DNA from: the human T2T-CHM13v2.0 reference genome, Homo sapiens
Direction: 5' to 3' (one strand)
Assembly: GCF_009914755.1 (NCBI RefSeq)
Contig: NC_060930.1
Length of the DNA: 64,000 bases
Positions 1-58,497 of this stretch are shown here, piece by piece. The position numbers were made by a program, and so were the translations under genes. Numbering within the stretch: position 1 is the first letter of the stretch; each line of letters begins with the position of its first letter. A model generated the notes under the pieces. That model was not told the DNA's origin and did not search any database. It saw only the letters and a program-made list of their open reading frames with translations.

Positions 1-817
1 GTTTTATCTGTATACTTTATGGATCATCGCATGGAGTCAGGCAGAGATGGCATCCATCTCATTCATTAAAGCTATTGTAGAAAGTGGCAGTGTGTGTGTT
101 GGGCCTCTAGGGTGAGCCTGCTGTAACTTTCTCCTCAAGGGCCAGGTTATTACTGGGATCAGTCCAGTTTCTGTTTCCATATTTTCTGTATTGAAAAGAG
201 AGGTTCTACCTGGGCTCCTCTCTACATCGACTTTTGTCAGCAGTTTCTTCCCATCTATCTGGCTTTTAGTAGGAATAATTAAGACATTTGTAACTTGGGC
301 TGCTAACACTACAGTTAGGTTTTAGGATAACATACTGCAGGTTCAAGACAGTAACTAGTGGATTCCATGCCTTTGGTGATGGTACAGGCTTTCCCTTCCA
401 TTGAAATTCTGTGTCTTCTTTAATGTCACAGTCAGTAGATTTTAACTGTAATCTGTATGGGTCCATCTCTTACTAATGATCCAGCGTGAAATGCTTTAGT
501 GAGATTGGATTTTCTGAGCTAGCCCAGTAGTGGAGGTGTAGTAGATATAGGCAGAGGATGAGGAGGAAAAAGAAGAGGAAGATGGCAGGCTGGCTGCAGC
601 AGTTTGGAAGGAAGTGCAGCCCAGCATTCTGCAGCAGGTAGTTAGAGCACAGACAGGCACATTTATAAGTTTACTACTCATGTGACACACTTGACCACAG
701 CTTGGCAGGAAGAATTTTCTGAAAACGTCTTGATTTGTAGCCTCATTACTTCAATCTCTGTTTCTGTGATCACATTGTGCCTCCTTTTTTCCATGTGTAT
801 TAAAGTTGAATTCAAAA
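1..817 (-). pseudogene. Large 3' exon remnant of candidate pseudogene
   Basis: Strong acceptor ttttttttttag at 818-829; frame FEFNFNTHGKKEAQCDHRNRD*SNEATNQDVFRKFFLPSCGQVCHM... has one stop before TAA at 496; ORFs 466-266 and 309-37 tile the remainder, implying frameshifts. Confidence 0.5.
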
Positions 818-1023
818 CTAAAAAAAAAAATTATCATAACAGGGCCACCAGTAAACAGCCACCATTTTGGCATCTCTGAGTCAAAACTTAAGCTTAATGA
901 TGTTACAGACATGATTGAAGCACCTGAACCCATACAAGGTCATTTGTGTATAGACCTTGATTGACACTATTGTTTGGATACAACCAGAGAGAAGGAATGC
1001 ATAGGACAATTTTATAATCTTAC

Positions 1024-1081
1024 CCGTTTGGGTTTTTCTTATGTTAAATCACCTTGGAAGTACAGTTGCATTTAAAACTTC
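1024..1081 (-). pseudogene. Candidate exon, 58 nt
   Basis: ttaatctgtacag | GAAG...AACGG | gtaaga. Confidence 0.5.
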
Positions 1082-1420
1082 CTGTACAGATTAATGCAGA
1101 AAAGTTGGGACATTTGGAGATTAGTTGAATAAAAATAGAACTTCGGTAGAGTTGGAATAAATGAAAACTTTCAAATCCAAATAGATGTTTTACAGATTTG
1201 CAATAGTTTACAACTTATCGTATTTGGAAGTAAATACTTAAAAATTGGCTAAGGAGACGCATAAAGGAATCTGCTTCCCTTTCCAAAAGACAGACTGAAA
1301 ATAACAGCAGAGATTCTATTGCAGAATTTAAGAGTAGGACATCAATGGGCGACGATTGAATATTTTTCTCCTTCTGTTGTTCACCTCCTCAGAAACATGT
1401 GTGAGATTGAATTTTTTCAA

Positions 1421-1545
1421 AAAAGAGGAAAGAAGGAAAGAAAGAAAGAGGGAAAGAAAGAAAGAAAGAAGGAAAGAAAGAAAGAAAGAAAGAAAGAGGC
1501 AAAGAAAGAAAGAAAGAAGGAAAGAAAGAAAGAAAGAAAGAGGCA

Positions 1546-1581
<36 letters not shown>

Positions 1582-1729
1582 GAAAGAAAGAAGGAAGGAA
1601 GGAAGGAAGGAAGGAAGGAAGGAAAGAAAGAAAGAAAAAAAGAAAGAAAGAAAGAAGGAAAGAAAAAGAAAAAGAGAAAGAAAAAAGAAAGAAGGAAAGA
1701 AAGAAAGAAAGAAAGAAGAAAGAAAGAAA

Positions 1730-1789
<60 letters not shown>

Positions 1790-1790
1790 G
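1421..1790. repeat. (GAAA)n/(GGAA)n polypurine microsatellite
   Basis: About 370 bp of almost pure A/G; explains the K/E/R and F/L/S ORFs. Confidence 0.98.
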
Positions 1791-2060
1791 AGATATGTAA
1801 AAAGCACAAAAAAACCCAGGACAGCTATCAGTTCACAAAGACAAAAGTACACTACAAATACTTAGCATCTTGTCATTAATTGTCACACTGTTGCTTTTGG
1901 ACATTCTTGATTAGAGGAAAGGAAGTTGAAGTCTAGCCTGGCAAAGAGAGTATTTTCATTGCAAATCTACAACTTTATGGCTATAATTTTGAAAAATACA
2001 CTATTTTATAATACCTAAAGCAAAACGTAAAAAGTGTTTCTATAGAAAATTGAAACTTAC

Positions 2061-2133
2061 CAAGGTCTCCACATAGGTGAAAGAGCTTGCAACCTCTTCA
2101 ATCATACTCTCTCAGGTTGTACACATTGTTTTT
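2061..2133 (-). pseudogene. Candidate exon, 73 nt, acceptor degenerate (AA)
   Basis: ttcttttctaa | ...GACCTTG | gtaagt; strong donor. Confidence 0.4.
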
Positions 2134-2478
2134 TTAGAAAAGAACATTCATATGTGATATAATAAAAATGACATTCATTGTATGTTCTAAAAAATGTTTA
2201 AATACTTAAGAAAAAGAGAAAAAATCAATGTGGAGAAACTGGCCACTTTTAAAAATCCATTCTTTTGGAAGTGCACTGATATTAGACATTTCCAGGCAAA
2301 ATAAGATGAATAAAAAATGAAGTTGGTGAAACCTGCCTTCAATATTCTTTCTCTTAACTTTTAACATCATTTTCCTACTTTATGTTGCTCAAGCTCTGGT
2401 TTTAACATTTTTTTCTTGTATCTTCCTAGAAAAAACTTTTTGTACCTTGAGATAGCGCAACAAGCATAGGAGACTTAC

Positions 2479-2491
2479 CAATCTTTTCCTT
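2479..2491 (-). pseudogene. Candidate microexon, 13 nt
   Basis: ttttatttctattag | AAGGAAAAGATTG | gtaagt. Confidence 0.5.
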
Positions 2492-2959
2492 CTAATAGAA
2501 ATAAAACAAGCAAATTTAGCCTGGGCTTATCTTCTTTTGATATAGATTTTCTTTCAATAAGCTAGAAAAGACCCCCTTTCTAGCAGGTATTAATATTTGA
2601 GAATAGGAAAATATGTCTTTTTCATATCATTTCTTACAGAAATAAAATTTATGCTAAGACAGAGAAAATAAAGTGTGTAGGCTGTGGTGAGACGGGCTAT
2701 AGAAATTACCACAGGTGAGAAAAGATACAGAAGGGCTATAGAAGGATAAAGAATTTGACTTCCAGAGTCTAATCTATAATGTTTATTGTCTCTATTCTTT
2801 GAAATTTGACATTGGAGCAAATTCTGGATGATGTGTGCCATAGCTTGGCTTTAACTTCCTCACCCTCAAATAAATGTATTTTATTTTCTTTATATCAGTC
2901 ACCCACAACCATAATTATAATTTTGGTCTTGTTATCTCTCCAAATTACATCACCACTAA

Positions 2960-3293
<334 letters not shown>

Positions 3294-3309
3294 TGAAATC
3301 TCAGTTTTA

Positions 3310-4445
3310 AGCATTCTATTTTCTGACCATAATTCCTAGATTTTCAACTAATGTTTTGTGTCATTTTAACAATCCTTTATCTATACGATATTGTCTCCTA
3401 CTTCATTAAAATATATATATAAACAATTGGTTGAGTTCCTTTATAGTCTTATACCAACTCTATTAGTCTTCCTGTATCTGTACTCAAGATCCGTACTCCT
3501 ACCTAAGGCCCAAACTTCTTTTGCTTTGAACTCCATCTCCTTTTGTCTTCTCAAGTAATTCTTTCTGCAAATGGTCCATTATTTCCCTGGAGTCATAATT
3601 GTGCTTCCTCTTGGATGTTTCTCATCACCAGATAAAAATGTTTTATCAAGTATATAAAAATTTTAAAAACCATCGAACCTAAAACTAAACAAAAATAGAC
3701 TCCATATTCATCCATTTCCCCTTCAGCTACTATTTTATTTCTGGGTAATTCATTGTATTAAAACACTTAATATTTTTTAGAATTTCTATTACCAAGTGCT
3801 CACATACCACTTTTTCAACCCACTGTTAGCAGGTTACTTTTACCAACACTCTATGGAAATTATTGTTGTTTGAATTAATGATGACCTGCATGTTTCTTAA
3901 GATCACTTCAAAGATCATTGACTCCTCTTTGAAATTATTATTGGTGATCGCTTTCTCTTTTTTGAAAAGCTGCCTTCTGGTACTACCTCTTCTGATTTTC
4001 CTTCCTGTTTGGTCTTCTCTGTCTCCCTTGCTAGCTTATTTATTCTTTGGCATCTAAATGTTGGAATGTCTCAATATTCTGTTCTGGTTCCCATCTCTTC
4101 TCAACTACACACACTCCCTGGTTATTTCCTTCGGTCCTATGGCTTTAAGTGTGGTCCCTAAAGCAATTACTCCAAGGTTAAAATTTTCGTCTTTCACTTC
4201 TCCACTAAATTGCAGACTTAGTTGTTCAAATTTCTAGTGCTTTGATGTTATGCCAAGTAAACTTTTCAAAATTGTCATGTCCCAAACAGAACTCTCCTTT
4301 TTAATAAAAATATCTTCATGAATTCTAATCTATTTTTACTACTATTTTCTGAGTCCAAGCTACTTTCATTTTTCACCAGGAGTACATAAAGTCTCTCCTA
4401 ATTTCTCATCCTCTTTTAATCTTATCCCTCTATTATCTATAGTAT
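3310..4445 (+). mobile_element. L2 LINE ORF2/3' fragment, highly diverged
   Basis: Pyrimidine-rich sequence resembling L2 consensus motifs; boundaries approximate. Confidence 0.6.
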
Positions 4446-4865
4446 TTTCTTAAGTTATTTTTAATATCAAGAATTTTATTTCCAAGAAATAGTTATTATA
4501 ATATTTTATGCATATATCATCCCATTTACTACATTGTCTATTTACAGGTACTTATTTATTTCAAAAATTTATTTTAAATAAATGTTGTCTGTGATAATAA
4601 TACCTACATCAAATGCAAATCTGCTACTATTTGATAGTTAGAAGGGACAAATTATTTAGTATATTTATGTTAAACTTAGGTTTTCGGTGACCAAATCAAC
4701 AGACATAACTTACATTTAATTTAAGCATAACACACTCTTCATATCAATAATATGAATATCAACATATACTGAAAAACAAACCTAACCTCAAGCTAAGGAA
4801 GTAGATGTGATATTGACATACATAGTTGATTTGCTGTAACATTTCTCAGAGCTTTAGAAAGAAAA

Positions 4866-26546: not shown

Positions 26547-28952
26547 TTTTTTTTCCAAGATGGCAGATTGGAGACATTGCTAGCATGCCTCTTCCACTTG
26601 GAAAGACAAAATAGTGTGTAGAGAATCACACTGAACTTTTTCCCAAGAAGCAACACAGGAACTTAAAAAAACTAAAAGAAATCATAGACCCTTTGAAAGA
26701 AACATCAGGCTGCAGCCTACACTGTGAGCTAGGTGAAAACTGTTAAGTGCCTCTAGTGTGAGAGGGGGATAAAGTGACTTTGGGATATACTCTCCGACTG
26801 GGGAACCTGGCAATACAGGCCACTGGGAAAGGCCCTAATCCTACCCAGCGCTGGAGGTGAGTTAATGAGCAGTGGGGAGTATATAAAAATGAATGGCTCT
26901 GAGATGGACTTTGTGTGAGCTCCCAGTTTCCAGTGGGGATGTAGGGAACCCATACCTGATCCTACTTTACAGGAGACTTCATGCAAGTCTGCTAGCTAAC
27001 TCAGGCAGCAAAGGTTGAGAGAAGCTCCCAACTGAGATTTATGATATAATCTCAAATGGGAATAAAAGACCTTGGCAAAAACCGTGGGGCGAGTGGAGAT
27101 TGTGCTGCAGCCGCAGGCATGAGAGCTAGACACGCATGCTTCACAGGCAGACTTGGAGAACGTGGACTGAAAGCCTTGGTTTCTGTCTCTGCAGGGAAGG
27201 CTTGTGGCCTGGGGTGGTTCTGAGTTCTGAGCACACTGCCTGGAACCTAGTTAGTTGCTGCTAGTGGGACACCGCAGGTGTGAGGTCGCTTTGCCAAATG
27301 TGTGGGAGCTGGGTGGGGCTTACTGCTGCCTGCTGTTCCCCACTCCTCATGTGGTCTCTTCGGTATGGCAGAGGCAGATGTGCTCCTCCCTGGAACACTA
27401 CCCCAGTGGCCAGAGAACTGCCCTCTGATTCTCACTGGAGTTGTTGCTTGTGCCCACATATGTGGAGCCAGTGTGGACTTGCCTGACCCAGCCCCCACCC
27501 AGATTTGCCCCTCCATCCACTCTGGTGACTTAACACTAAGGACAGAAACTCTTGGGAGTTCCATGGCCCTGCCCATTGCCTGAGATGCAAAAGTACCTCT
27601 CCTGGGTCACATAAGGCAAACACAAATCTTACTAATACCACCATGGCTGTTGTTTTTTTTTGCAAGTTCCACCTCCTGACAGGAGTCCAAACAACACAGT
27701 CCATTACACCATCTGCAGGCACAATAATACAGTGCTTGGAAAAGAGAAAACTTGTGTGTGGCCTCAGCTATCACCATTGCTTACATCATTCTGGCTAACC
27801 AGGAGGTCCTGAACCTGTCCGCAAGACAATTTTATTACCACTACAACTAGCATTTGAGAAAGTCAACACACTAAGGCTATTTATAACCAAGGAATCTCAC
27901 AAGGTATATGCCAATGTCACTCCCCTGCCAATACCATCAGAGCTGGTGTTGGTAACCACTGCTGGGAGATTTGAGGACAGGTCACATCACAGAACCCCTT
28001 GCAGACATTCCCTAGCACCAGCCTGGAGTGAGGCACCCCCACCGAGTGGCTAGACCTAGAGGAGCAGCAGCACTCACAGTAATCTGGCCCTTGAGATAAG
28101 TTTCAAGAGACCTCTGTCATTCCAACTGCACAGAAGACAATGAACCTGATCATACACCAAGCACATTGCTACTACAACTAGCTTAAAGCCATCATACAAA
28201 GAATCTATAACTAGGTTACTCATACAGAAGCTTCACCCCTGAAGGCACACAGAGCTGTATTAGTTTACAAGAAATTTAAAAAATTAAAGTTACATCCTCA
28301 AGAGGAAGAAAAAGAAAATTTAAAAACACTGTTGAATTCAAAAATAATTCAAAAATAATTAGAAGAAATAGTCTACCCCAAAGAGAAGGAACTAGAAAAA
28401 ATATTCTAGCAGGAGGACAAACAGGGTTCACTAGCTCACCAGCAATGAATCCAAACCAAGATGAAATATTTGAAATACAGATAAAGGATCCAAAATGTTG
28501 ATTATTAAGCTACTTAAGGAAGTATAAGAGAAAGGTGAAAACCAACATAAAGATTTTTTTTAATTTAGTATCTAATGAGAAATTTTCTAAAGAAATAGAT
28601 CTTTTAAAGAAAAAACAATCAGAACTTCTGGAAATGAAAGGTGCACTTAGGGAATTACTAAATGCTGTGGGAAGTTGTAACAAAAGAATAGACCAAGTAG
28701 AAGAAAGAATTTCAGAGGTTGAAAACAAGGCTTTTGAATTAACCCAATCAAACAAAATTAAAAAAATAAAAGGCAACGAACAAAGCCTCCAAGAAATATG
28801 GGATTATGCATAATGGCCAAACTTAAGAATCTTTGCTGTACCTGAGGGAGAATAAAAAAATAAAAGTTTGGAAAACTTGTTTGAGGGAATAATTCAGGAA
28901 AACTTTCCAAGCCTGACTGGACATTTAGACAGTCAAATACAAGAAGCTCAGA
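26547..28952 (+). mobile_element. L1 (L1PB/L1MA-type) 5'UTR plus ORF1 N-terminal half, 3'-truncated
   Basis: ccaagatggcagattggag start; ORF1 coiled coil EIDLLKKKQSELLEMK...RIDQVEERISEVE...SLQEIWDY. Confidence 0.9.
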
Positions 28953-30352: not shown

Positions 30353-30569
30353 TAGGGACCTCGACAAACCACTGAGAGGGAAGTGGGTCTGTGATTACAT
30401 TGTATTTTTATACTCATAATTCTGGTCTTAAGATTTTTGTAATATTGATTGAGGTGGTCGAACCCCCTCAAGGCCATCAAAGAAGACTGAGGTGACAAAT
30501 GAATTGAGCCAAAATTTCAATCACACAGTACTACATTGATGTAGTGAATGCTGTCTTCAGAAGTCCTTT

Positions 30570-31724
30570 TGTGTCCGGAATTGGTGGGTTCTTGGTCTCA
30601 CTGACTTGAAGAACGAAGCCATGGATGCTCGTGGTAAGTGTTACAGTTCTTGAAGGCAGTGTGTCCGGAGTTGTTCCTTCTGATGTTTGGATGTGTTTGG
30701 AATTTCTTCCTTCTGTTGGTTTCGTGGTCTCACTGGCTCAGAAGGGAAGCTGCAGACCTTTGCAGTGAGTGTTACAGCTCTTAAGGTGGCGTGTCTGGAG
30801 TTGTTCATTCCTCCTGGTGCGTTCGTGCTCTCGCTGGCTTCAGGAGTGAAGCTGCAGACCTTCGTGGTGAGTGTTACAGCTCATAAAGGCAGTGTGGACC
30901 CAGAGTGAGCAGCAGCAAGATTTATTGCAAAAAGTGAAAGAACAAAGCTTCCACAGCGTGGAAGGGGATCCCAGTGGGTTGCCACTGCTGGCTGGGACAG
31001 CCTGCTTTTATTCTCTTATCTGGCCCCACCCACATCCTGCTGATTGGTCCATTTTACAGAGAGCCGATTGGTCTGTTTTACAGAGAGCTGATTGGTCCGT
31101 TTTGACAGGGTGCTGATTTGTGCATTTCCAATCCCTGAGCTAGACACAAAAGTTCTCCACGTCCCCACTAGATTAGCTAGATACAGAGTGTCAATTGGTG
31201 CATTCACAAACCCTGAGCTAGACACAGGGTGCTGATTGGTGTGTTTACAAACCTTGAGCTAGATACAGAGTGCTGATTGGTGTATTTACAATCCCTTAGC
31301 TAGACATAAAGATTCTCCAAGTCCCCACCAGACTCAGGAGCCCAGCTGGCTTCACCCAGTGGATCCCACACAGGGCCGCAGGTGGAGCTGCCTGCCAGTC
31401 CCGAGCCGTGCGCCTGCACTCCTCAGCCCTTGGGTGGTCGATGAGACTGGGTGCCATGGAACAGGGGACAGTGCTCATCAGGGAGGCTCGGGCCATGCAG
31501 GAGCCCATGGTGGTGGGGTGGGGGAGCCTGAGGCATGGCGGGCTGCAGGTCCCAAGCCCTGCCCCGCTAGGAGGCAGCTAAGGTCCGGCGAGAAGTTGAG
31601 CACTGCAGCTGCTAGCCCAGGTGCTAAGCCCCTCACTGCCCGGGGCCAGCGGGGCTGGTGGGCCACTCCGAGTGCGGGGCCCGCAATTGCGGCCAGAGTG
31701 GGTGCCAAGGCCGAGGAGGCACCA
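30570..31724 (-). mobile_element. LTR12 (ERV9) solo LTR copy lacking about 47 bp of its 5' end
   Basis: Reverse complement of ...cccaccaattccggacaca terminus; CCAAT tandem repeats; colinear with the 31921-33124 copy. Confidence 0.95.
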
Positions 31725-31920
31725 AAGCTTTATAATATAAACCAGGCTTAAGAGTTTATTGAAAGACCAAAAAAAAAAGAAAAAGAAAACCCTTAAGAAA
31801 ATGTTCAACTGTTATCGCTGCTTCAGATTTGGGTGTTGGCTTATATTCCATAGCCAATATTTATAGGACTTTCGGTAACTTCTTGTACCTAATTGCAGAA
31901 ATAACAGATGTGTGTCAAAG

Positions 31921-33124
31921 TGAGAGGTGACAGCATGCTGGCAGCCCTCGCAGCCCTCGCTCGCTCTCGGTGCCTCCTTGCCCTTGGCACCCACCCTGCC
32001 CGCGATTGCAGGCCCCACACTCGGAGCCGCCAGCTGGCCCTGCCGGCCCTGGGCAGTGAGGGGCTTAGCACCTGGGCCAGCAGTTGCTGTGCTCCACTTC
32101 TCGCCGGGCCTTAGCTGCCTCCCCACGGGGCAGGGCTTGGGACCTGCAGCCCGCCATGCCTCAGCCTCCCCAACCCCACCACCGTGGGCTCCTGTGTGGC
32201 CCGAATCTCCCCAATGAGCACCACCTCCGCTCCACGGCGCCCAGTCCCATCGACCACCCAAGGGCTGAGGAGTGCAGGCACACAGTGTGGGACTGGCAGG
32301 CAGCTCCACCTGCGGCCCTGTGCGGGATCCACTGGGTGAAGCCAGCTGGGCTCCTGAGTCTGGTGGGGACTTGGAGAATCTTTATGTCTAGCTAAGGGAT
32401 TGTAAATACGCCAATCAGCACTCTGTATCTAGCTCAAGGTTTGTAAACACACCAATCAGCACCCTGTGTCTAGCTCAGGGTTTGTGAATGCACCAATTGA
32501 CACTCTGTATCTAGCTAAACTAGTGGGGACGTGGAGAACTTTTGTGTCTAGCTCAGGGATTGTAAACGCACAAATCAGCACCCTGTTAAAACGGACCAAT
32601 CAGCTCTCTGTAAAACAGACCAATCAGCTCTCTGTAAAATGGACCAATCAGCAGGATGTGGGTTGGGCCAGATAAGAGAATAAAAGGAGGCTGCCTGAGC
32701 CTGCAGTGGCAACCCGCTTGGGTCCCCTTCCACACTGTGGAAGCTTTGTTCTTTCACTCTTTGCAATAAATTTTGCTGCTGCTCACTCTTTGGGTCCACA
32801 CTGCCTTTATGAGCTGCAAGACTCACCGTGAAAGTCTGCAGCTTCACTCCTGAAGCCAGCGAGACCACAAACACACCAGGAGGAATGAACAACTCCAGAC
32901 ATGCCACCTTAAGAGCTGTAACACTTACCGCAAAGGTCTGCAGCTTCACTCCTGAGCCAGTGAGACCACAAACCCACCAGAAGAAAGAAACTCCGAACAC
33001 CTCCAAACATCAGAAGGAACAAACTCCAGACACGTTGCCTTTAAGAACTGTAACACTCACCATGAGGGTCCGCGGCTTCATTCTTGACGTCAGTGAGACC
33101 AAGAACCCACCAATTCCGGACACA
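31921..33124 (+). mobile_element. LTR12 (ERV9) solo LTR with both termini
   Basis: tgagaggtgacagc...ccggacaca; 4-bp TSD AAAG at 31917-31920 and 33125-33128. Confidence 0.97.
32400..32720 (+). promoter_or_regulatory. LTR12 U3 enhancer/promoter (CCAAT cluster, GATA, AATAAA TATA-like box); mirrored at about 30980-31300 on the minus strand
   Basis: Multiple ccaat motifs and gataagagaataaaa at 32671-32685; LTR12 is a known NF-Y/GATA-driven promoter; activity here untested. Confidence 0.6.
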
Positions 33125-33439
33125 AAAGAACATGGTTAACTATATAGAGCTAATTTGACAGTTTTTTTTAAAGTCAGTGAGTAACAATGAGTTAACTGCT
33201 TGTATAAATAAGCAATTCCTGTGTAGACTGATGAAATGGTTTGAAAGATGAGTATTGAGTAGTAATGACTCTGAGATTCGAACACATGTTTAACTCCAAA
33301 TTCCATACAATTCCTCTTTATATATTGTCTCAAGGAAATAAAGTTTGAGCCAAGAAACATTCTTCAATGAATAATAATAACACTGGTAAAGTGTTATGCT
33401 TTTGAATTTTACAAAGCTCTAGCAAATTCATTGTAACTT

Positions 33440-33610
33440 ATGTTACTTATTATTATACAATTATATTATATTATACAATTATAAGTTAATTATTTTATAC
33501 AATATACTTTATATTGTATATAAATATATTGTATATAAATATAAATACAATATTTATATTGTATTATTTTATACAGTATACTTATACAATTATAAGTTAC
33601 TTTATTTTAA
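33440..33610. repeat. AT-rich low-complexity sequence
   Basis: Direct inspection. Confidence 0.8.
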
Positions 33611-36111
33611 TTTTTTCCCATAAGAATTGACTGTTAGTGGCTTCCTCATATTCTTCTGAAGTAGATTAAAAAATAATACAAACCTAAATTACTGCCTGGA
33701 ATCCTTTCTTTTTGCCTTATGGAATTAAAGTAAAAACTTGTGGATATGTTCATTTGGTTTTAGGGTGTCAGATATTTCATTAATGAATAATATATTAAAC
33801 AAAAACAATACTTTGTAAAATAGTTATCTCTGCTAATAATATTCAGAAAAGGAATTGTATCTGAAGAAAATTTTCATTAGCAGTTCTTATAAAATATATG
33901 CTACATTCCAGAGGAAAATGACAGATAGGAGGCAGGACTAATTTTCAGCTCCCACTCGGACAGACAGAACAGCATGTGGAGATTCTCACATCATGAGTTT
34001 TTGCTCCAGAAACTACCACAGGGATATACCAAAAAAGCCGATAGAATCCACAGACCCTTTGAAGAAAGAGAATTGGTGCTGCAGGCCCTGAGTAACAGCT
34101 GAAAATCTGTGAGTATCCAAAGTGTGAAAGCATGAAAGGGGGATTGTTTAACCCTGAGCACAAACCCGCACTGGGGAGCCTGGAGGTCCAGATGATGGGA
34201 GAAAGATTTGACCTTATCTGGAGCTAAGATAAATTGAGAAGGCCAAGCAAAATACAAGGGTAGAAGAAGCAGCGGAAAGAGCCCTGTGGGCTTTCTTGGT
34301 CCCCAGGGAAGCTATTTCTGACTTCATCTCACAGGAGTCCTTGGGGGTGGAGGCTGCCAGAGAAATTGGGAAGACCACAGGGTGAAGGAAACTTCCAGCT
34401 GAATTTGTAACAATTTCAACCCAACATGAAGTTTTCTGGACAGAACCTGGGATAGGGTAAATTGGGAGTGCAGACACAGCACAGAAGCCATGGCAGGCAG
34501 GGAGGTGTGAAACCTAAAAGACTTGCTTGTTTTATCAGCCAGGAAGCTGGTAACCTGGAACAAGGTCTCAGACCTGCTCACTGGCTGCCTGGAAATAAAC
34601 TCAGTGCTGTTGAGGGGGCATAGTGTGAGTGAGACTGGCCTTTTGGGCTGTGTGGGAGCTGGATGAGCCCTGTAACTGCTGGCTTTCCCCCCTTCCCTGG
34701 TGACCTGCATGATGTAGCAGAGGCAGCCATAATTTCCCTGGGAACATAACTCCATTGGCCTGAGAACCATACCCCTATCCCCCACCACAGCCACAGCAAG
34801 CCTTGCCCAAGAGTCTGAGCTCAGACACGCCCAACCCTGCCCCCACCTAATGGTCTTTTCTACCTGCCCTGGTAGCCGAAGACAAACGACATAATCTCAT
34901 AGAAGCTTTAGGGCCCTGCCCAACACCTGGTCCTCCCTATACTACTGCAGCTGATACTCTCCTGAAAGCAAAACCAGCTGGCTGGAGGCCAACCATTGCA
35001 AAATAAACACAATAAACAAAACTACAACTGAGGACCTTCACAGAGTCCACTTCACTTCCCTTCTACCTCTACCAGAGTAGGTGCGGCATCGGTGGCTGAG
35101 AGACTTGAAGACAGTTCACATCACAGGACTCTGTGCAGACACTCCCCAGTACAAGCCTGGAGCCTGGTAGCTCCACTGGGTGTGGCTAGATCCAGAAGTG
35201 AAAAACAATCACTACAGTTTGGTTCTCAGGAAGCCACATCCCTAAGGGAAGGGAGAGAGCACCATATCGAGGGAGCACTCCATGGGAAAAAAGAATATAA
35301 ACAGCAGCCCTTGAGTCCCAGATTTTCCCTCTGATGTACTCTACCTAAAGGAGAAGGAACCAGGAAAACAGTTCTGGTAATATGACAAAATGAGGTTTAT
35401 TAATGCCCCCAAAAGATCACACTATCTCACCAGCAATGAATCCAAAACAAGAAGAAATCTCTGAATTTCCAGAAAAATAATTTAGAAGGTCGATTATTAA
35501 GCTAATCAAGGAGGCACAAGAGAAAGGTAAAGTCCAACTTAAAGAAATTAAAAAAAGATACAAAATATGAAGGGAAAAATCTTCAGTGAAATAGATAAAA
35601 TAAATTAAAAAAAAAACACAACTTCTGGAAATGAAGGACACACTTAAAAAAAAACCCAAAATACACTGGAAAGCCTCAGCAATAGAACTGAATAAGTAGA
35701 AGAAAGAACTTCAGAGCTCGAAGACAAGGATTTTGAATTAACCCAAACCAATAAAGACAACAAAAAAATTTTTTTAAAAATGAACAAAGCCTCCACAAAG
35801 TTTGGGATTGCGTTAAACAACCAAACCTAAAAATAATTGGCATTCTTGAAGAAGAAGAGAAATCCAAAAGTTAGGAATATGTATTTGAGGGAATAATCAA
35901 GGAAAATTTTTCCATCCTTGCTAGAGATCCAGACATCCAAATACAAGAAGTTTAAAGAACACCTGGGAAATTTATCTCAAACAGATTATTACCTAGAAGC
36001 ACAGTCATCAGGTTGTCTAAAGTCAAGACAAAAGAAAGAATCTTAAGAGCTGTGAGGCAAAAGCATCAGGTAACCTTTAAAGAAAAACCTATCATATGAA
36101 CAGCAGCTTTC

Positions 36112-39114: not shown

Positions 39115-41862
39115 GCGCCAAGAAGAAAGTTCATAGCATTAAATGCCTACATCAAAAAGTCTGGGAGAGCACAAATAGACAATCTAAGGTCTCACAACAA
39201 GGAACTAATGAATCAAGAACAAACCAAACCCGAACTCAACAGAAGAAAAGAAATAACAAAGATCAGAGCAGAACTAAGTGAAAGTGAAACAAAAATAATG
39301 CAAAATATAAGTGAAACAAGAAGCTGGTTCTTCGAAAAGATAAATAAAATTGATAGACCATTTGCAAGATTAGCCAAGAAAAGAAGAGAGAAGATCCAAG
39401 TAAGCTCAATTAGAAATGAAATGTGAGATATTACAAACAATATCAAAAAAATACAAAAGATCACTCAAGGCTACTACGAATACATTTATATGCATAAGCT
39501 AAAAAACTTAGAGGAAATGAATAAATTCCTGGAAATATGCAACTCTCCTAGATTAAACCAGGAAGAAATAGAAACTCTGAACAAACCAATAACAAGCAGC
39601 AAGATGGAAATGGTAATAAAAGAATTGCCAAACAACAACAAAAAAGGAGCAGACAGGAACAGACAGATTCAGGGCCAAATTCTGTCAGGTATTCAAAGAA
39701 GAATTGTACCAATCCTATTGACACTATTCCACAAAATAGAAAAAGAGAAAATCCTCCCTAATTCACTCCATGAAGCCAGTATCACTCTAATACCAAAACC
39801 AGGAAAGGACATAACAAAAAAGAAAACTACAGACCAATATCCTGGATTATTATAGATGCAAAAATCCTTAACAAAATACTAGCTAACCTAATTCAACAAC
39901 ATATCAAAAAGATAATCAAGCGTGATCAAGTGGGTTTCATGCCAGGATGCAGAAATGGTTTAACATGTGCAAGTAAATAATTGTGATACACCACATGAAC
40001 AGAATTGAAAACAAAAATCACATGATTATCTCAACAAGTGCAGAAAAAGCATTTGATAAAACCAGCATCTTTTTATGACTAAAATCCTTATCAAAATTGG
40101 CATAGAAGGGACATACCTCAATACAATAAAAGCCATCTGTGAAAAACAAACAGCCAACATTATAGTGAATGGGGAGAAGCTGAAAACATTCCCTCTGAGA
40201 ACTGGAACAAGACAAGGATGCCCACTCTCATCCCTTCTATTCAACATAGTACAGGAAGTCCTAGCCAGAGCAATCAGACAAGAGAAGGAAATAAGGAGCA
40301 TCCAAATTGGTAAAGAGAAAGTCAAACTGTTGCTATTTTCCGTATATTATTGTATACCTAGAAAACCCTAAAGACTCCTCCCAGAAGCTTAGATCTGATA
40401 CATGAATTCAGTAGTTTCAGGATACAAAATCAATGTATACAAATCAGTAGCTCTGCTATACACCAACAGCGACCAAGCTGAGAATCAAATCAAGAACTCA
40501 ACCCCTTTTAAAATAACTACAAAAACTTATAAATATACCTAAACAAGGGGGTAAAAGACCTCTACAAGGAAAACTACAAAACATTGCTGAAAGAAATCAG
40601 ATGACACAAACAAAAGGAACCACATTTCATGCTCATGGATGGGTAGAGCCAATACTGTGAACATGACCATACTGCCAAAAGCAATCTACAAATTCAATGC
40701 AATTGCCCTCAAAATGCCACCATTATTCTTCACAGAACTAGAAAAAGCAATGCTAAAATTCATATGGAACCCAAAATGAGCCCACATAACCAAAGCAAGA
40801 CTAAGCAAAAAGAACGAATCTGAAAACATCATATTACCCAAATTCAAACTATACTATAAGGCCATAGTCACAAAAACAGCACAATACTGTTATAAAAATA
40901 GGCATATAGATCAACGGAATGGAAGAGAGAACCCAGAAATAAAGCCATATACTTACAGCCAACTGATTTTCAACAAAGCAAATGAAAACTTAAAGTGAGG
41001 AAAAGACCCTGTTCAACAAATGGTGCTGGAATAATTAGCAATCCACACGTAGAAGAATGAAACTAGATCTGCATCTCTCACCTTATACAAAAATCAATTC
41101 AAGGTGGATCAAAGACCTAAATCTAAAGGCCTGAAACCAAAAAAAGTTTAGAAGATAACATTGGAAAAACCCTTCCAGACATTGACTTAGGCGAAAACTT
41201 CATGATCAAAAGCCCAAAAGCAAGTGCAACCAAAATGAAGCTAGATAGATGGAACTTAATTAAACTAGCTTCTGCATAGCAGAAGAAACAATCAGCAGAG
41301 TAAACAGAAAACCCAAAGAGTGGGAAAAAGTCTTTGCAATCTGTGCATCTGACAAAGGACTAATATCCAGAGTCTATAAGGACCTCAAGCAAGAAAAAAT
41401 ACAAACAAACCCATCAGAGCATGAATAGACAATTCTAAAAAGAAGACATACAAATGGCCAACAAATATATGAAAAAATGTTCAACGTCACTAATTATCAG
41501 AGAAATGCAAATCAAAACCACAATGCAATATCACCTTACTCCTGCGAGAATGGCCATGATCAAAAAATAAATAAATAATAGATGTTCACAGGGATGTGGT
41601 GAAAAGGGAACACTTTTACACTACTGGTGGTAATGTAAACTAGTTCAACCACTATGGGAAACAGTGTGGAGATTCCTTAAAGAACTAAAAGTAGAACTAC
41701 CATTTGCTCCAGCAATCCCACTACTGTGTATCTACCCAGAGGAAACAAACTCATTGTACAAAAAAGACACTTGCACATGCATGTTTATAGAAGCACAATT
41801 TGCAATTGCAAAAATAGGAAAACAGCCTAAATGCCCATCAAAGAGTGTACAAAGAAATTCTG

Positions 41863-56464: not shown

Positions 56465-58497
56465 GTTTTTATTTATTTATTTATTTATTTTATACTCCTG
56501 ATTTTTTCTTTTCTTTTTTTCTTTCTTTTTTTAACTTTAAGTTCTGGTATACGTGTCCTGAAAGTGCAGGTTTATTACACAGGTATACATGTGACATGGT
56601 GGTTTGCTACACCTATCAACCTGTCATCTAGGTTTTAAGCCCTGCATGCATTAGGTATTTGTCCTAATGCTCTCCCTCCCATTTTTCCCAACCCCACAAA
56701 AGACCCTGGTGTGTGATGTTCCCCTCCCTGTGTCCATGTGTTCTCATTATTCAACTCCCACTTATGAGGGAGAACATGAGTTGTTTGGCTTTCTGTTCCT
56801 GTGTTAGTTTGCTGAGGATGAGGGTTTCCAGCTTCATCCATGTCCCTGCAAAGGACATAAACTCATTCCTTTTTATGGCTGCATAATATTCCATGATGTA
56901 CATGTGCCACATTTTCTTTATCCAGTCTATCGTTGATGGGCATTTGGGTTAGTTCCAAGTCTTTGGACTTAGTAGAATGATTTATAATCCTTTGGGTGTA
57001 TACGCAGTAATGGGATTGCTGGGTCAAATGGTATTTCTGGTTCTAGATCCTTGAGGAATCATCACACTGTCTTCCACACTGGTTTAACTAATTTACACTT
57101 CCACCAACAGTGTGAAAGTGTTCCCATTTCTCCACATCCTCTGCAGCATCTGTTGTTTCTTGACTTTTTAATGATTTCCATTCTAACTGGCATGAGATGG
57201 TATCTCATTGTGGTTTTGATTTGCATTTCTCTAATGACCAGGGATGATGAGCTTTTTTTCATATGTTTGCTGACCACATAAATGTCTTCTTTTAAAAAGT
57301 GTCTGTTCATATCCTCACCCACTTTTTGATGGGGTTGTTTGTTTTTTTTCTTGTAAATATGTTTAAGTTCTTTGTAGATTCTGGATATTAGACTTTTGTC
57401 AGATGGATAGGTTACAAAAATTTTCTCCCATTCTGTAGGTTGCCTGTTTACTCCGATAGTTTCTTTTGCTGTGCAAAAGAAGCCCTTTAGATTAATTAGA
57501 TCCTATTTGTCCATTTTGGCTTTTGTTGCCATTGCTTTTGGTGTCTTAATCATGAAGTCTTTGCCTATGCCTATGTTGTCCTGAATAATATTGCCTAGGT
57601 TTTCTTCTAGGGTTTTTATGGTTGTAGGTTTTACGTTTAAATATTTAATCCATCTTGAGTTCATTTTTGTGTAAGATGTAAGGAAGGGGTCTAGTTTCTG
57701 TTTTCTGCATATGGCTAGCCAGTTTACCCAGCACCATTTATTACATAGGGATTCTTTCCCCATTGCTTGTCAGGTTTGTCAAAGATCAGATGGTTGTAGA
57801 TGTGTGGTGATATTTCTGAGGCCTCTGTTCTTTTCCATTGGTCTATATATCTGTTTTGGTAGCAGTACCATGCTGTTTAGGTTACTGTAGCCTTGTAGTA
57901 TAGTTTGAAGTCAGGTAGCATGATGCCTCCAGCTTTGTTCCTTTTGCTTAGGATTGTCTTGGCTATACAAGCTTTTTTGTTTTGTTTTGTTTCATATGAA
58001 ATTTAAAGTAGTTTTTTCTAGTTCTGTGAAGAAAGTCAATGGTAGCTTGATGGGAACAGCATTGAATCTAGAAACTACTTTGGGCACTATGGCTATTTTC
58101 ATGATATTGATTCTTCCTATCCATGAGCATGGAATGTTTTTCCATTTGTTTGTATCCTCTCTTATTTTCTTGAGCAGTGGTTTGTAATTCTCTTGAAGAG
58201 GTCCTTCATGTCCCTTGTAAGTTGTATTCCTAGGTATTTTATTCTCTTTGTAGTAATTGTGAATAAGAATTCACTCATGATTTGGCTCTCTGCTTGTCTA
58301 TTATTGGTGTATAGCAATGCTTGTGATTTCTGCACATTGATTTTGTATCCTGAGACTTTGCTGAAGTTGCTTATCAGCTTAAGGAGATTTTGGGCTGATA
58401 TGATGGGGTTTTCTAAATATACAATCATGTCATCTGCAAGTAGAGACAATTTGACTTCCTCTCTTCCCATTTGAATATGCTTTATTTCTTTCTCTTG
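56465..58497 (-). mobile_element. 5'-truncated L1PA (ORF2 3' part plus 3'UTR)
   Basis: [19 protein letters not shown]...; T-rich tail; TSD agg(t/c)taattatt. Confidence 0.95.

What the first reader, a model, noticed from the sequence alone, without database searches (positions are those of the whole stretch)
30570..33128. Back-to-back inverted LTR12 pair that looks like a local inverted duplication
Seen: about 1.15-kb arms separated by a unique spacer of about 196 bp. The right copy has both termini and an AAAG TSD. The left copy lacks about 47 bp of 5' end and has no TSD of its own, yet its 3' flank (aaaggactt) resembles the right copy's (aaagaacat). Both carry gcacAaatcag where neighbouring repeats have ccaat (31113-31123, 32568-32578) and the same repeat count; from my recollection of the LTR12C consensus, they also share the same two U3 deletions. 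The central ~340 bp differ at roughly 10 positions; the CpG-rich part is more diverged. A provirus gives direct LTRs, so this is not a proviral remnant. Inference: microhomology-mediated template switching copied the solo LTR in reverse, possibly followed by arm-to-arm gene conversion.
Basis: partly seen in the sequence, partly recalled or inferred. Interest (0 to 1): 0.7.

Follow-up and report, generated by a model that had tools for sequence, protein, structure and literature searches.

The report
Old inverted self-copy of one LTR12
Two back-to-back, oppositely oriented copies of an ancient viral promoter (LTR12) on human chromosome 6 share private mutations and are likely one insertion that was copied in reverse by a DNA-copying slip millions of years ago, a known kind of accident with no function shown.

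Summary
The inverted pair is real: left arm 30570-31725 (-), right solo LTR 31921-33124 (+) with an AAAG target-site duplication (TSD); 98 substitutions in 1154 columns. The arms are sisters. Both lack a 171-bp U3 block whose exact junction motif matched nowhere else in the genome. They share two substitutions found in under 1% of other copies and form a supported tree pair (97/90). The left copy's 3' flank also starts AAAG. Best reading (0.83): a microhomology-primed template switch copied the solo LTR in reverse. The event is old: the shared stem is about one fifth of the tip length, roughly 12-25 million years under assumed rates. Ape orthologues were not available. No gene is annotated nearby and no function is shown. 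A new member of a known kind, low interest.

The parts
30570..31725 (-). Left LTR12 copy, lacking the first 46 bp; likely the duplicate
30566..30569 (+). CTTT (AAAG in LTR sense) abutting the left copy's 3' end; inferred priming microhomology, 7 of 9 match to the right copy's 3' flank
31728..31731 (+). Second CTTT, within 2 bp of the left copy's truncated 5' end; forms a 4-bp direct repeat round the left copy, identical to the right copy's TSD
31726..31920 (.). Unique AT-rich spacer of 195 bp (the loop between paired arms is 241 bp with the unpaired 5' end of the right LTR)
31917..31920 (+). 5' copy of the AAAG target-site duplication of the right LTR
   Evidence: exact 4-bp TSDs in 25 of 39 other copies with both ends
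31921..33124 (+). Right LTR12 solo LTR, both termini intact (TG...CA); likely the donor
33125..33128 (+). 3' copy of the AAAG target-site duplication
32007..32008 (+). Junction of the private 171-bp U3 deletion (left copy: 31685/31684), with a shared substitution at 32005/31687
32162..32162 (+). Shared rare substitution (left copy 31530); 8 other copies against 923 with the common base
32572..32572 (+). Shared rare substitution that destroys one CCAAT box (left copy 31119); 6 other copies against 807
32360..32710 (+). Right enhancer/promoter core: 41-bp and 24-bp repeats, 6 CCAAT, 2 GATA-type and 2 GTGGGGA motifs, AATAAAA at 32679; start-site inverted repeat changed at 32702
   Evidence: motifs from PMC11853044 section 5
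30981..31331 (-). Left enhancer/promoter core: the same motifs, AATAAAA at 31012, start-site motif intact at 30992-30981
   Evidence: motifs

Best explanation
The right element is an LTR12 solo LTR and the left element is its sister copy in reverse, likely made by a replication or repair template switch primed on the 4-bp target-site sequence. Shown: the inverted geometry, the right copy's termini and TSD, the private shared deletion and substitutions, sister position in trees, and the AAAG/CTTT matches at the junctions. Inferred: an HERV9 provirus inserted at AAAG and collapsed to a solo LTR; it lost 171 bp of U3 and gained a few substitutions; a nascent strand ending in CTTT about 1.4 kb upstream annealed to the LTR's 3' AAAG, copied about 1.15 kb backwards and rejoined its own template at or a few bases before the point of departure (1-4-3-2 or '4 before 1' order in the four-point model). 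Since then the arms have mostly mutated independently. The pair is likely neutral; both promoters point outwards, but activity is untested.
For: 171-bp block absent from both arms and present in 42 of 43 other copies; the exception, L029, lacks its whole 5' part. The junction pattern matched exactly only in the two arms genome-wide; the five hits at 3 mismatches were two intact LTR12s and three non-LTR12 stretches, and 36 of 42 fetched copies would have passed the pattern had they carried the deletion. Two shared substitutions occur in 8 against 923 and 6 against 807 other copies, with no locus on both lists. Each arm is the other's best hit among 40 scored. The pair is a cherry at 97/90 in the full non-CpG tree and also in three partial trees at SH-aLRT 81, 71 and 88; stem 0.005, tips 0.025 and 0.027. 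The left 3' flank matches the right's at 7 of 9 bases (window frequency 0.0016); 0 of 43 other 3' flanks begin with AAAG. A back-to-back pair that looks independent (L055) is 75% identical and of different length. Template switches of this order give single inverted repeats (PMC7954356).
Against: No outgroup genome was available, and flanks and spacer are unique, so the pre-duplication allele is not seen. All four shared non-CpG rare states lie in the 5' 650 bp; the 3' 440 bp has none (p about 0.10), and there each arm has slightly closer non-sister copies by raw distance. The CTTT direct repeat round the left copy has the length of a true integrase TSD. The return junction has only 1-3 bp of microhomology and is ambiguous. 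The tree's bootstrap had not settled. Genome searches scored only 40 of 400-4464 candidates each. The 1.15-kb copy is much longer than the short-range events of the cited model.
Confidence: 0.83

Rival explanations
1. Two independent HERV9 integrations about 200 bp apart in opposite orientation, each reduced to a solo LTR; an old conversion tract then copied the deletion and substitutions across the 5' 650 bp, and a later deletion trimmed the left 5' end.
For: A 4-bp direct repeat brackets the left copy. No shared non-CpG rare state lies in the 3' part. An independent-looking back-to-back LTR12 neighbour occurred at 1 of 43 loci.
Against: It needs the same 4-mer target twice (frequency 0.0086; 7 of 9 match 0.0016), a deletion ending at the TSD edge, and a conversion tract of about 600 bp. 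The arms still pair in the tree of the 3' part alone, weakly (SH-aLRT 71).
Confidence: 0.09
2. Two sibling viral DNAs from one deleted parent integrated side by side in one infection, both made by integrase; the shared changes come from the parent virus.
For: Short stem relative to tips; 4-bp repeat round the left copy; intact CA end on the left copy.
Against: No other copy of such a parent was found; the identical target 4-mer is unexplained; it needs two solo-LTR collapses and a precise 5' trim.
Confidence: 0.04
3. Add-on to the best reading, not exclusive of it: later arm-to-arm gene conversion homogenised the central enhancer repeats.
For: The centre differs at 8 of 395 sites against 22.6 expected; lowest centre/outer ratio of 665 pairs; simulated scan p 0.008. 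A no-conversion, equal-rate count model fits worse than one conversion (6.6e-5 against 9.0e-4).
Against: Against real unrelated pairs the same scan is not extreme: 16 of 253, and 10 of 46 arm-versus-other pairs. Conversion predicts about 8 shared derived sites in the centre, but 1 non-CpG site is seen (p 0.003). A slower-evolving centre fits best (0.046, one free rate factor). The longest identical run between the arms (108 bp) is shorter than that between the left arm and unrelated L023 (174 bp).
Confidence: 0.25

Closest known systems
LTR12 (HERV9/ERV9) solo LTRs, long C/D/E-type with 5' extension (PMC11853044; passages and section 5 read)
   Same: 41-bp U3 repeats with CCAAT, GATA-type and GTGGGGA motifs, AATAAAA about 20-30 bp before the start-site inverted repeat, U5 repeats, TG...CA ends, 4-bp TSD.
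   Different: Private 171-bp U3 deletion, short repeat array, and an inverted sister copy 195 bp away. The exact subfamily could not be assigned.
Template-switch inverted repeats, four-point model types 1-4-3-2 and '4 before 1' (PMC7954356; passages and part of section 8 read)
   Same: A reverse-complement copy of nearby sequence inserted close to its source, giving one inverted repeat with a spacer.
   Different: The copied tract is about 1.15 kb and is a retroviral LTR; that study searched tens to hundreds of bases and had ape outgroups, which were not available here.
Fold-back inverted duplications in human CNVs (PMC3907307; search listing only)
   Same: Inverted copy with a single-copy spacer.
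   Different: Small, old and 91% identical, in a gene-free stretch; no associated large deletion is evident.
Sex-chromosome palindromes kept by arm-to-arm conversion (PMC8600007 passages; PMC3723533 listing only)
   Same: Arm-spacer-arm geometry.
   Different: Those arms exceed 99.9% identity; these are 91% identical and show no clear conversion signature.
Closely spaced inverted Alu pairs (PMC3215922; passages read)
   Same: Head-to-head repeat pair with a short spacer, a class that is somewhat depleted and potentially unstable.
   Different: Alu pairs are treated there as separate insertions; this pair descends from one copy. Depletion at 51-205 bp spacers is mild (ratio 0.898), so survival is not very surprising.

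Membership tests
LTR12/HERV9 LTR | About 41-bp U3 tandem repeats carrying CCAAT, TCTGTATCTAGCT and GTGGGGA | tested here: met
   against the description
LTR12/HERV9 LTR | AATAAAA upstream of the start-site inverted repeat | tested here: met
   intact on the left, one change on the right
LTR12C, D or E subfamily | Best match to a Dfam/Repbase subfamily model | not testable with these tools
   No repeat library held; length and GC-rich 5' extension fit the long types
Integrase-made solo LTR (right copy) | TG...CA termini and 4-bp TSD | tested here: met
   family norm 25 of 39
Integrase-made solo LTR (left copy) | Intact 5' TG terminus | tested here: not met
   first 46 bp missing
Integrase-made solo LTR (left copy) | Own, independent TSD | tested here: inconclusive
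   CTTT repeat present within 2 bp of the arm end but identical to the right copy's TSD
Local inverted duplication | Arms are sisters with private shared characters | tested here: met
Template-switch (MMBIR-like) product | Microhomology at the junctions | tested here: inconclusive
   4 bp exact and 7 of 9 at the outer junction; 1-3 bp, ambiguous, at the inner
Template-switch (MMBIR-like) product | Single-copy ancestral allele with contiguous flanks | not testable with these tools
   No primate genomes; flanks and spacer unique
Palindrome kept by arm-to-arm conversion | Homogenised tract with an excess of shared derived sites | tested here: not met
   1 shared non-CpG site against about 8 expected; scan not extreme among unrelated pairs
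Proviral remnant | Direct LTRs with internal sequence between them | tested here: not met
   LTRs are inverted and the spacer is unique

The most novel reading that the evidence does not exclude
A solo LTR duplicated itself locally, without retrotransposition, by using its own 4-bp target-site duplication as the microhomology for both template switches: in at the 3' AAAG, out at the 5' AAAG, back to one host CTTT. That yields a full inverted copy with a counterfeit TSD identical to the donor's, later trimmed by about 43 bp. If general, some apparent independent LTR insertions are DNA-level copies, recognisable as close inverted pairs with the same TSD, and they create outward-facing twin promoters.
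Probability: 0.2. Interest if true: 0.5.

Novelty: new member of a known kind. Interest (0 to 1): 0.24.

Why it matters
As it stands it is a clean, datable example of a kilobase-scale template-switch inverted duplication of a retroviral promoter that persisted at 91% identity with a short spacer. It warns that LTR copy counts and TSD-like repeats do not always mean separate insertions. It would matter more if same-TSD inverted pairs recur genome-wide, or if the twin outward-facing NF-Y cores prove active or constrained. No gene is annotated within about 30 kb apart from a pseudogene, and nothing functional was shown.

Tried and rejected
Subfamily explanation of the shared characters: rejected for the 171-bp deletion and two substitutions, accepted for the 43-bp block. 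My first count of 28 of 28 copies with the 171-bp block was wrong for L029, which lacks its whole 5' part; corrected. Two shared rare states in the 3' part (32932, 33062) lie in CpG-prone columns and were not counted as evidence. Gene conversion looked significant under a simulated null but not against real unrelated pairs. Testing flank contiguity through paralogues failed because flanks and spacer are unique. Rows dropped: eight of nine copies with identical flanks (a segmental-duplication family) were collapsed; L029 was left out; copies with other repeat-array lengths were left out, with four kept as outgroup; duplicate loci were removed. Seven literature searches (listings only) showed no paper on this locus. 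The supplement of PMC5398296, an inverted-duplicate catalogue that may list it, could not be read. Earlier scan notes were not available.

Full report
Observation. The sequence holds two inverted arms. A local alignment gives 1154 columns with 98 substitutions, 34 of them CpG-type, and 4 gap columns. Comparison with other genomic copies places the true 5' end of the right element at TG 31921 and its 3' end at CA 33124. It is flanked by AAAG on both sides; 25 of 39 other copies with both ends have an exact 4-bp TSD. The left arm spans 30570-31725 and lacks the first 46 bp. The 195-bp spacer and both flanks matched only themselves (that search can miss old or common repeats). Motifs described for LTR12 in PMC11853044 (section 5 and passages) are present in both arms. 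The subfamily letter cannot be assigned without a repeat library.

Are the arms sisters? Yes, by four tests. First, both lack a 171-bp U3 block that 42 of 43 other fetched copies carry; the other, L029, lacks its whole 5' part. A 28-letter junction pattern with up to 3 mismatches found exact matches only in the two arms. The five weaker hits were two intact LTR12s and three unrelated stretches, and 36 of 42 copies would have been caught had they carried the deletion. Second, the substitution at 32162/31530 is in 8 other copies against 923 with the common base, and that at 32572/31119 in 6 against 807, with no third locus in both lists. These frequencies fit scattered independent mutation, not a subfamily (inference). 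Third, each arm is the other's best genomic hit among the 40 scored per search, out of 3058-4464 candidates. Fourth, in a tree of 29 copies on 911 non-CpG columns the arms form a cherry at 97/90, the only starred clade within the ingroup, though the bootstrap had not settled; they also pair in three partial trees at SH-aLRT 81, 71 and 88. Against this: the shared non-CpG states all fall in the 5' 650 bp (none in the 3' part, p about 0.10), and in the outer segments the arms are no closer to each other than to the nearest non-sister copies.

Age. The stem is 0.005 and the tips 0.025 and 0.027 changes per site, so the duplication came early in the element's residence. Non-CpG divergence of 45/911 gives 12-25 million years for assumed rates of 2.2 to 1.0e-9 per site per year (rates from general knowledge), and 18-39 million years on the outer segments alone. 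The review dates ERV9 entry to about 30 million years ago and the main expansion between the gibbon and gorilla splits. I therefore predict that the pair is shared among great apes; this is untested.

Junctions. In LTR orientation the left copy's 3' flank begins AAAG like the right copy's and matches 7 of 9 bases; such a match has frequency 0.0016 in the window, and none of 43 other 3' flanks begins with AAAG. On the + strand a second CTTT lies at 31728-31731, two bases beyond the firm arm end, or abutting it if one single-base deletion is allowed. So the left copy is bracketed by a 4-bp repeat identical to the right copy's TSD. By chance this would occur a few percent of the time, so it is only suggestive. 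It can be a '4 before 1' scar of a template switch (PMC7954356, passages and part of section 8), the trace of a copy that ran through both TSDs and was later trimmed, or a true integrase TSD. The last needs the same 4-mer to be chosen twice. For contrast, 1 of 43 fetched loci (L055) had an opposite-strand LTR12 neighbour: 75% identical, shorter, with its own 5' end, which is what independent insertion looks like.

Mechanism. Most likely (0.83) a nascent strand ending in CTTT annealed to the solo LTR's 3' AAAG, copied about 1.15 kb in reverse and returned close to where it left. The geometry, shared characters and junction matches are shown. The order of events and the pathway (replicative switch or break repair) are inferred. 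Independent insertion with old conversion (0.09) and sibling integrations (0.04) remain open.

Gene conversion. The centre (32290-32684) differs at 8 of 395 sites, 22.6 expected from family-wide variability; a simulated scan gave p 0.008 and the lowest ratio of 665 pairs. This did not hold against a real null: 16 of 253 unrelated pairs, and 10 of 46 arm-versus-other pairs, have a window as quiet. Conversion should leave about 8 shared derived sites, and 1 non-CpG site is seen (p 0.003). Count models gave likelihoods of 6.6e-5 (no conversion), 9.0e-4 (one conversion) and 0.046 (slower centre, rate factor 0.3). The left arm shares a longer identical run with an unrelated copy (174 bp) than with its sister (108 bp). 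Both enhancer cores simply carry few changes. Low mutability, chance or constraint on the NF-Y repeats could explain that; I cannot separate them. A bias of conversion towards the ancestral state was not found in Y palindrome P6 (PMC8600007, passages).

Function. The two promoters face away from each other. Each keeps six core CCAAT boxes and AATAAAA; the left keeps the start-site motif intact and the right has one change in it (27 of 43 other copies have it intact). A transcript crossing both arms would form a long hairpin (inference; only the inner 421 nt were folded, as DNA, without a shuffled control). The supplied annotation lists no gene or functional element here, and no expression data were available. 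Depletion of inverted Alu pairs at 51-205 bp spacers is mild (PMC3215922, passages), so survival of this pair is not very surprising.

Known and novel. Inverted duplicates are abundant in the human genome (PMC5398296, abstract and methods; its supplement could not be read and may list this locus). Seven searches showed no paper on this locus in their listings. Interest 0.24. The boldest reading still open, TSD-primed self-duplication giving a counterfeit TSD, has probability 0.2 and would merit 0.5.

Noticed in passing
L055:393-2976 (G000:C14:67772598-67775647): A second back-to-back LTR12 pair: a long copy on the minus strand and a short copy about 450 bp away on the plus strand, 75% identical; looks like two independent insertions.
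   Followed up: partly
L006, L008, L012, L013, L015, L016, L017, L030, L064: Nine LTR12 copies on contigs C3, C4, C8, C11 and C16 share near-identical flanks on both sides, so one insertion was likely spread by segmental duplication.
   Followed up: partly
L005 and L027, just past the LTR 3' end: Both are followed by the same short sequence, recalled as a primer-binding site, so they are probably 5' LTRs of proviruses rather than solo LTRs.
   Followed up: no
L010:2620-2951: A 332-bp self-complementary stretch (78%) starts just after the LTR's 3' end; possibly a small DNA transposon.
   Followed up: no
window 27961-28946 and 35095-35950: Direct repeats 72-78% identical at about 7-kb spacing bracket the LTR12 pair; they look like old L1 pieces (name recalled).
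   Followed up: no
window 40413-41762 and 56969-58357: Inverted repeat pieces 71-78% identical, 15-18 kb apart, probably two old L1 fragments (name recalled).
   Followed up: no
window 33432-33607: AT-rich low-complexity tract with short direct and inverted repeats about 300 bp right of the pair.
   Followed up: no
window 1367-1816: Long degenerate tandem array with 8- and 12-base spacing.
   Followed up: no
window 31725-31732: The inner junction of the left copy sits on a short perfect palindrome (AAAG followed by CTTT, 31724-31731), which could have aided or marked the switch.
   Followed up: partly
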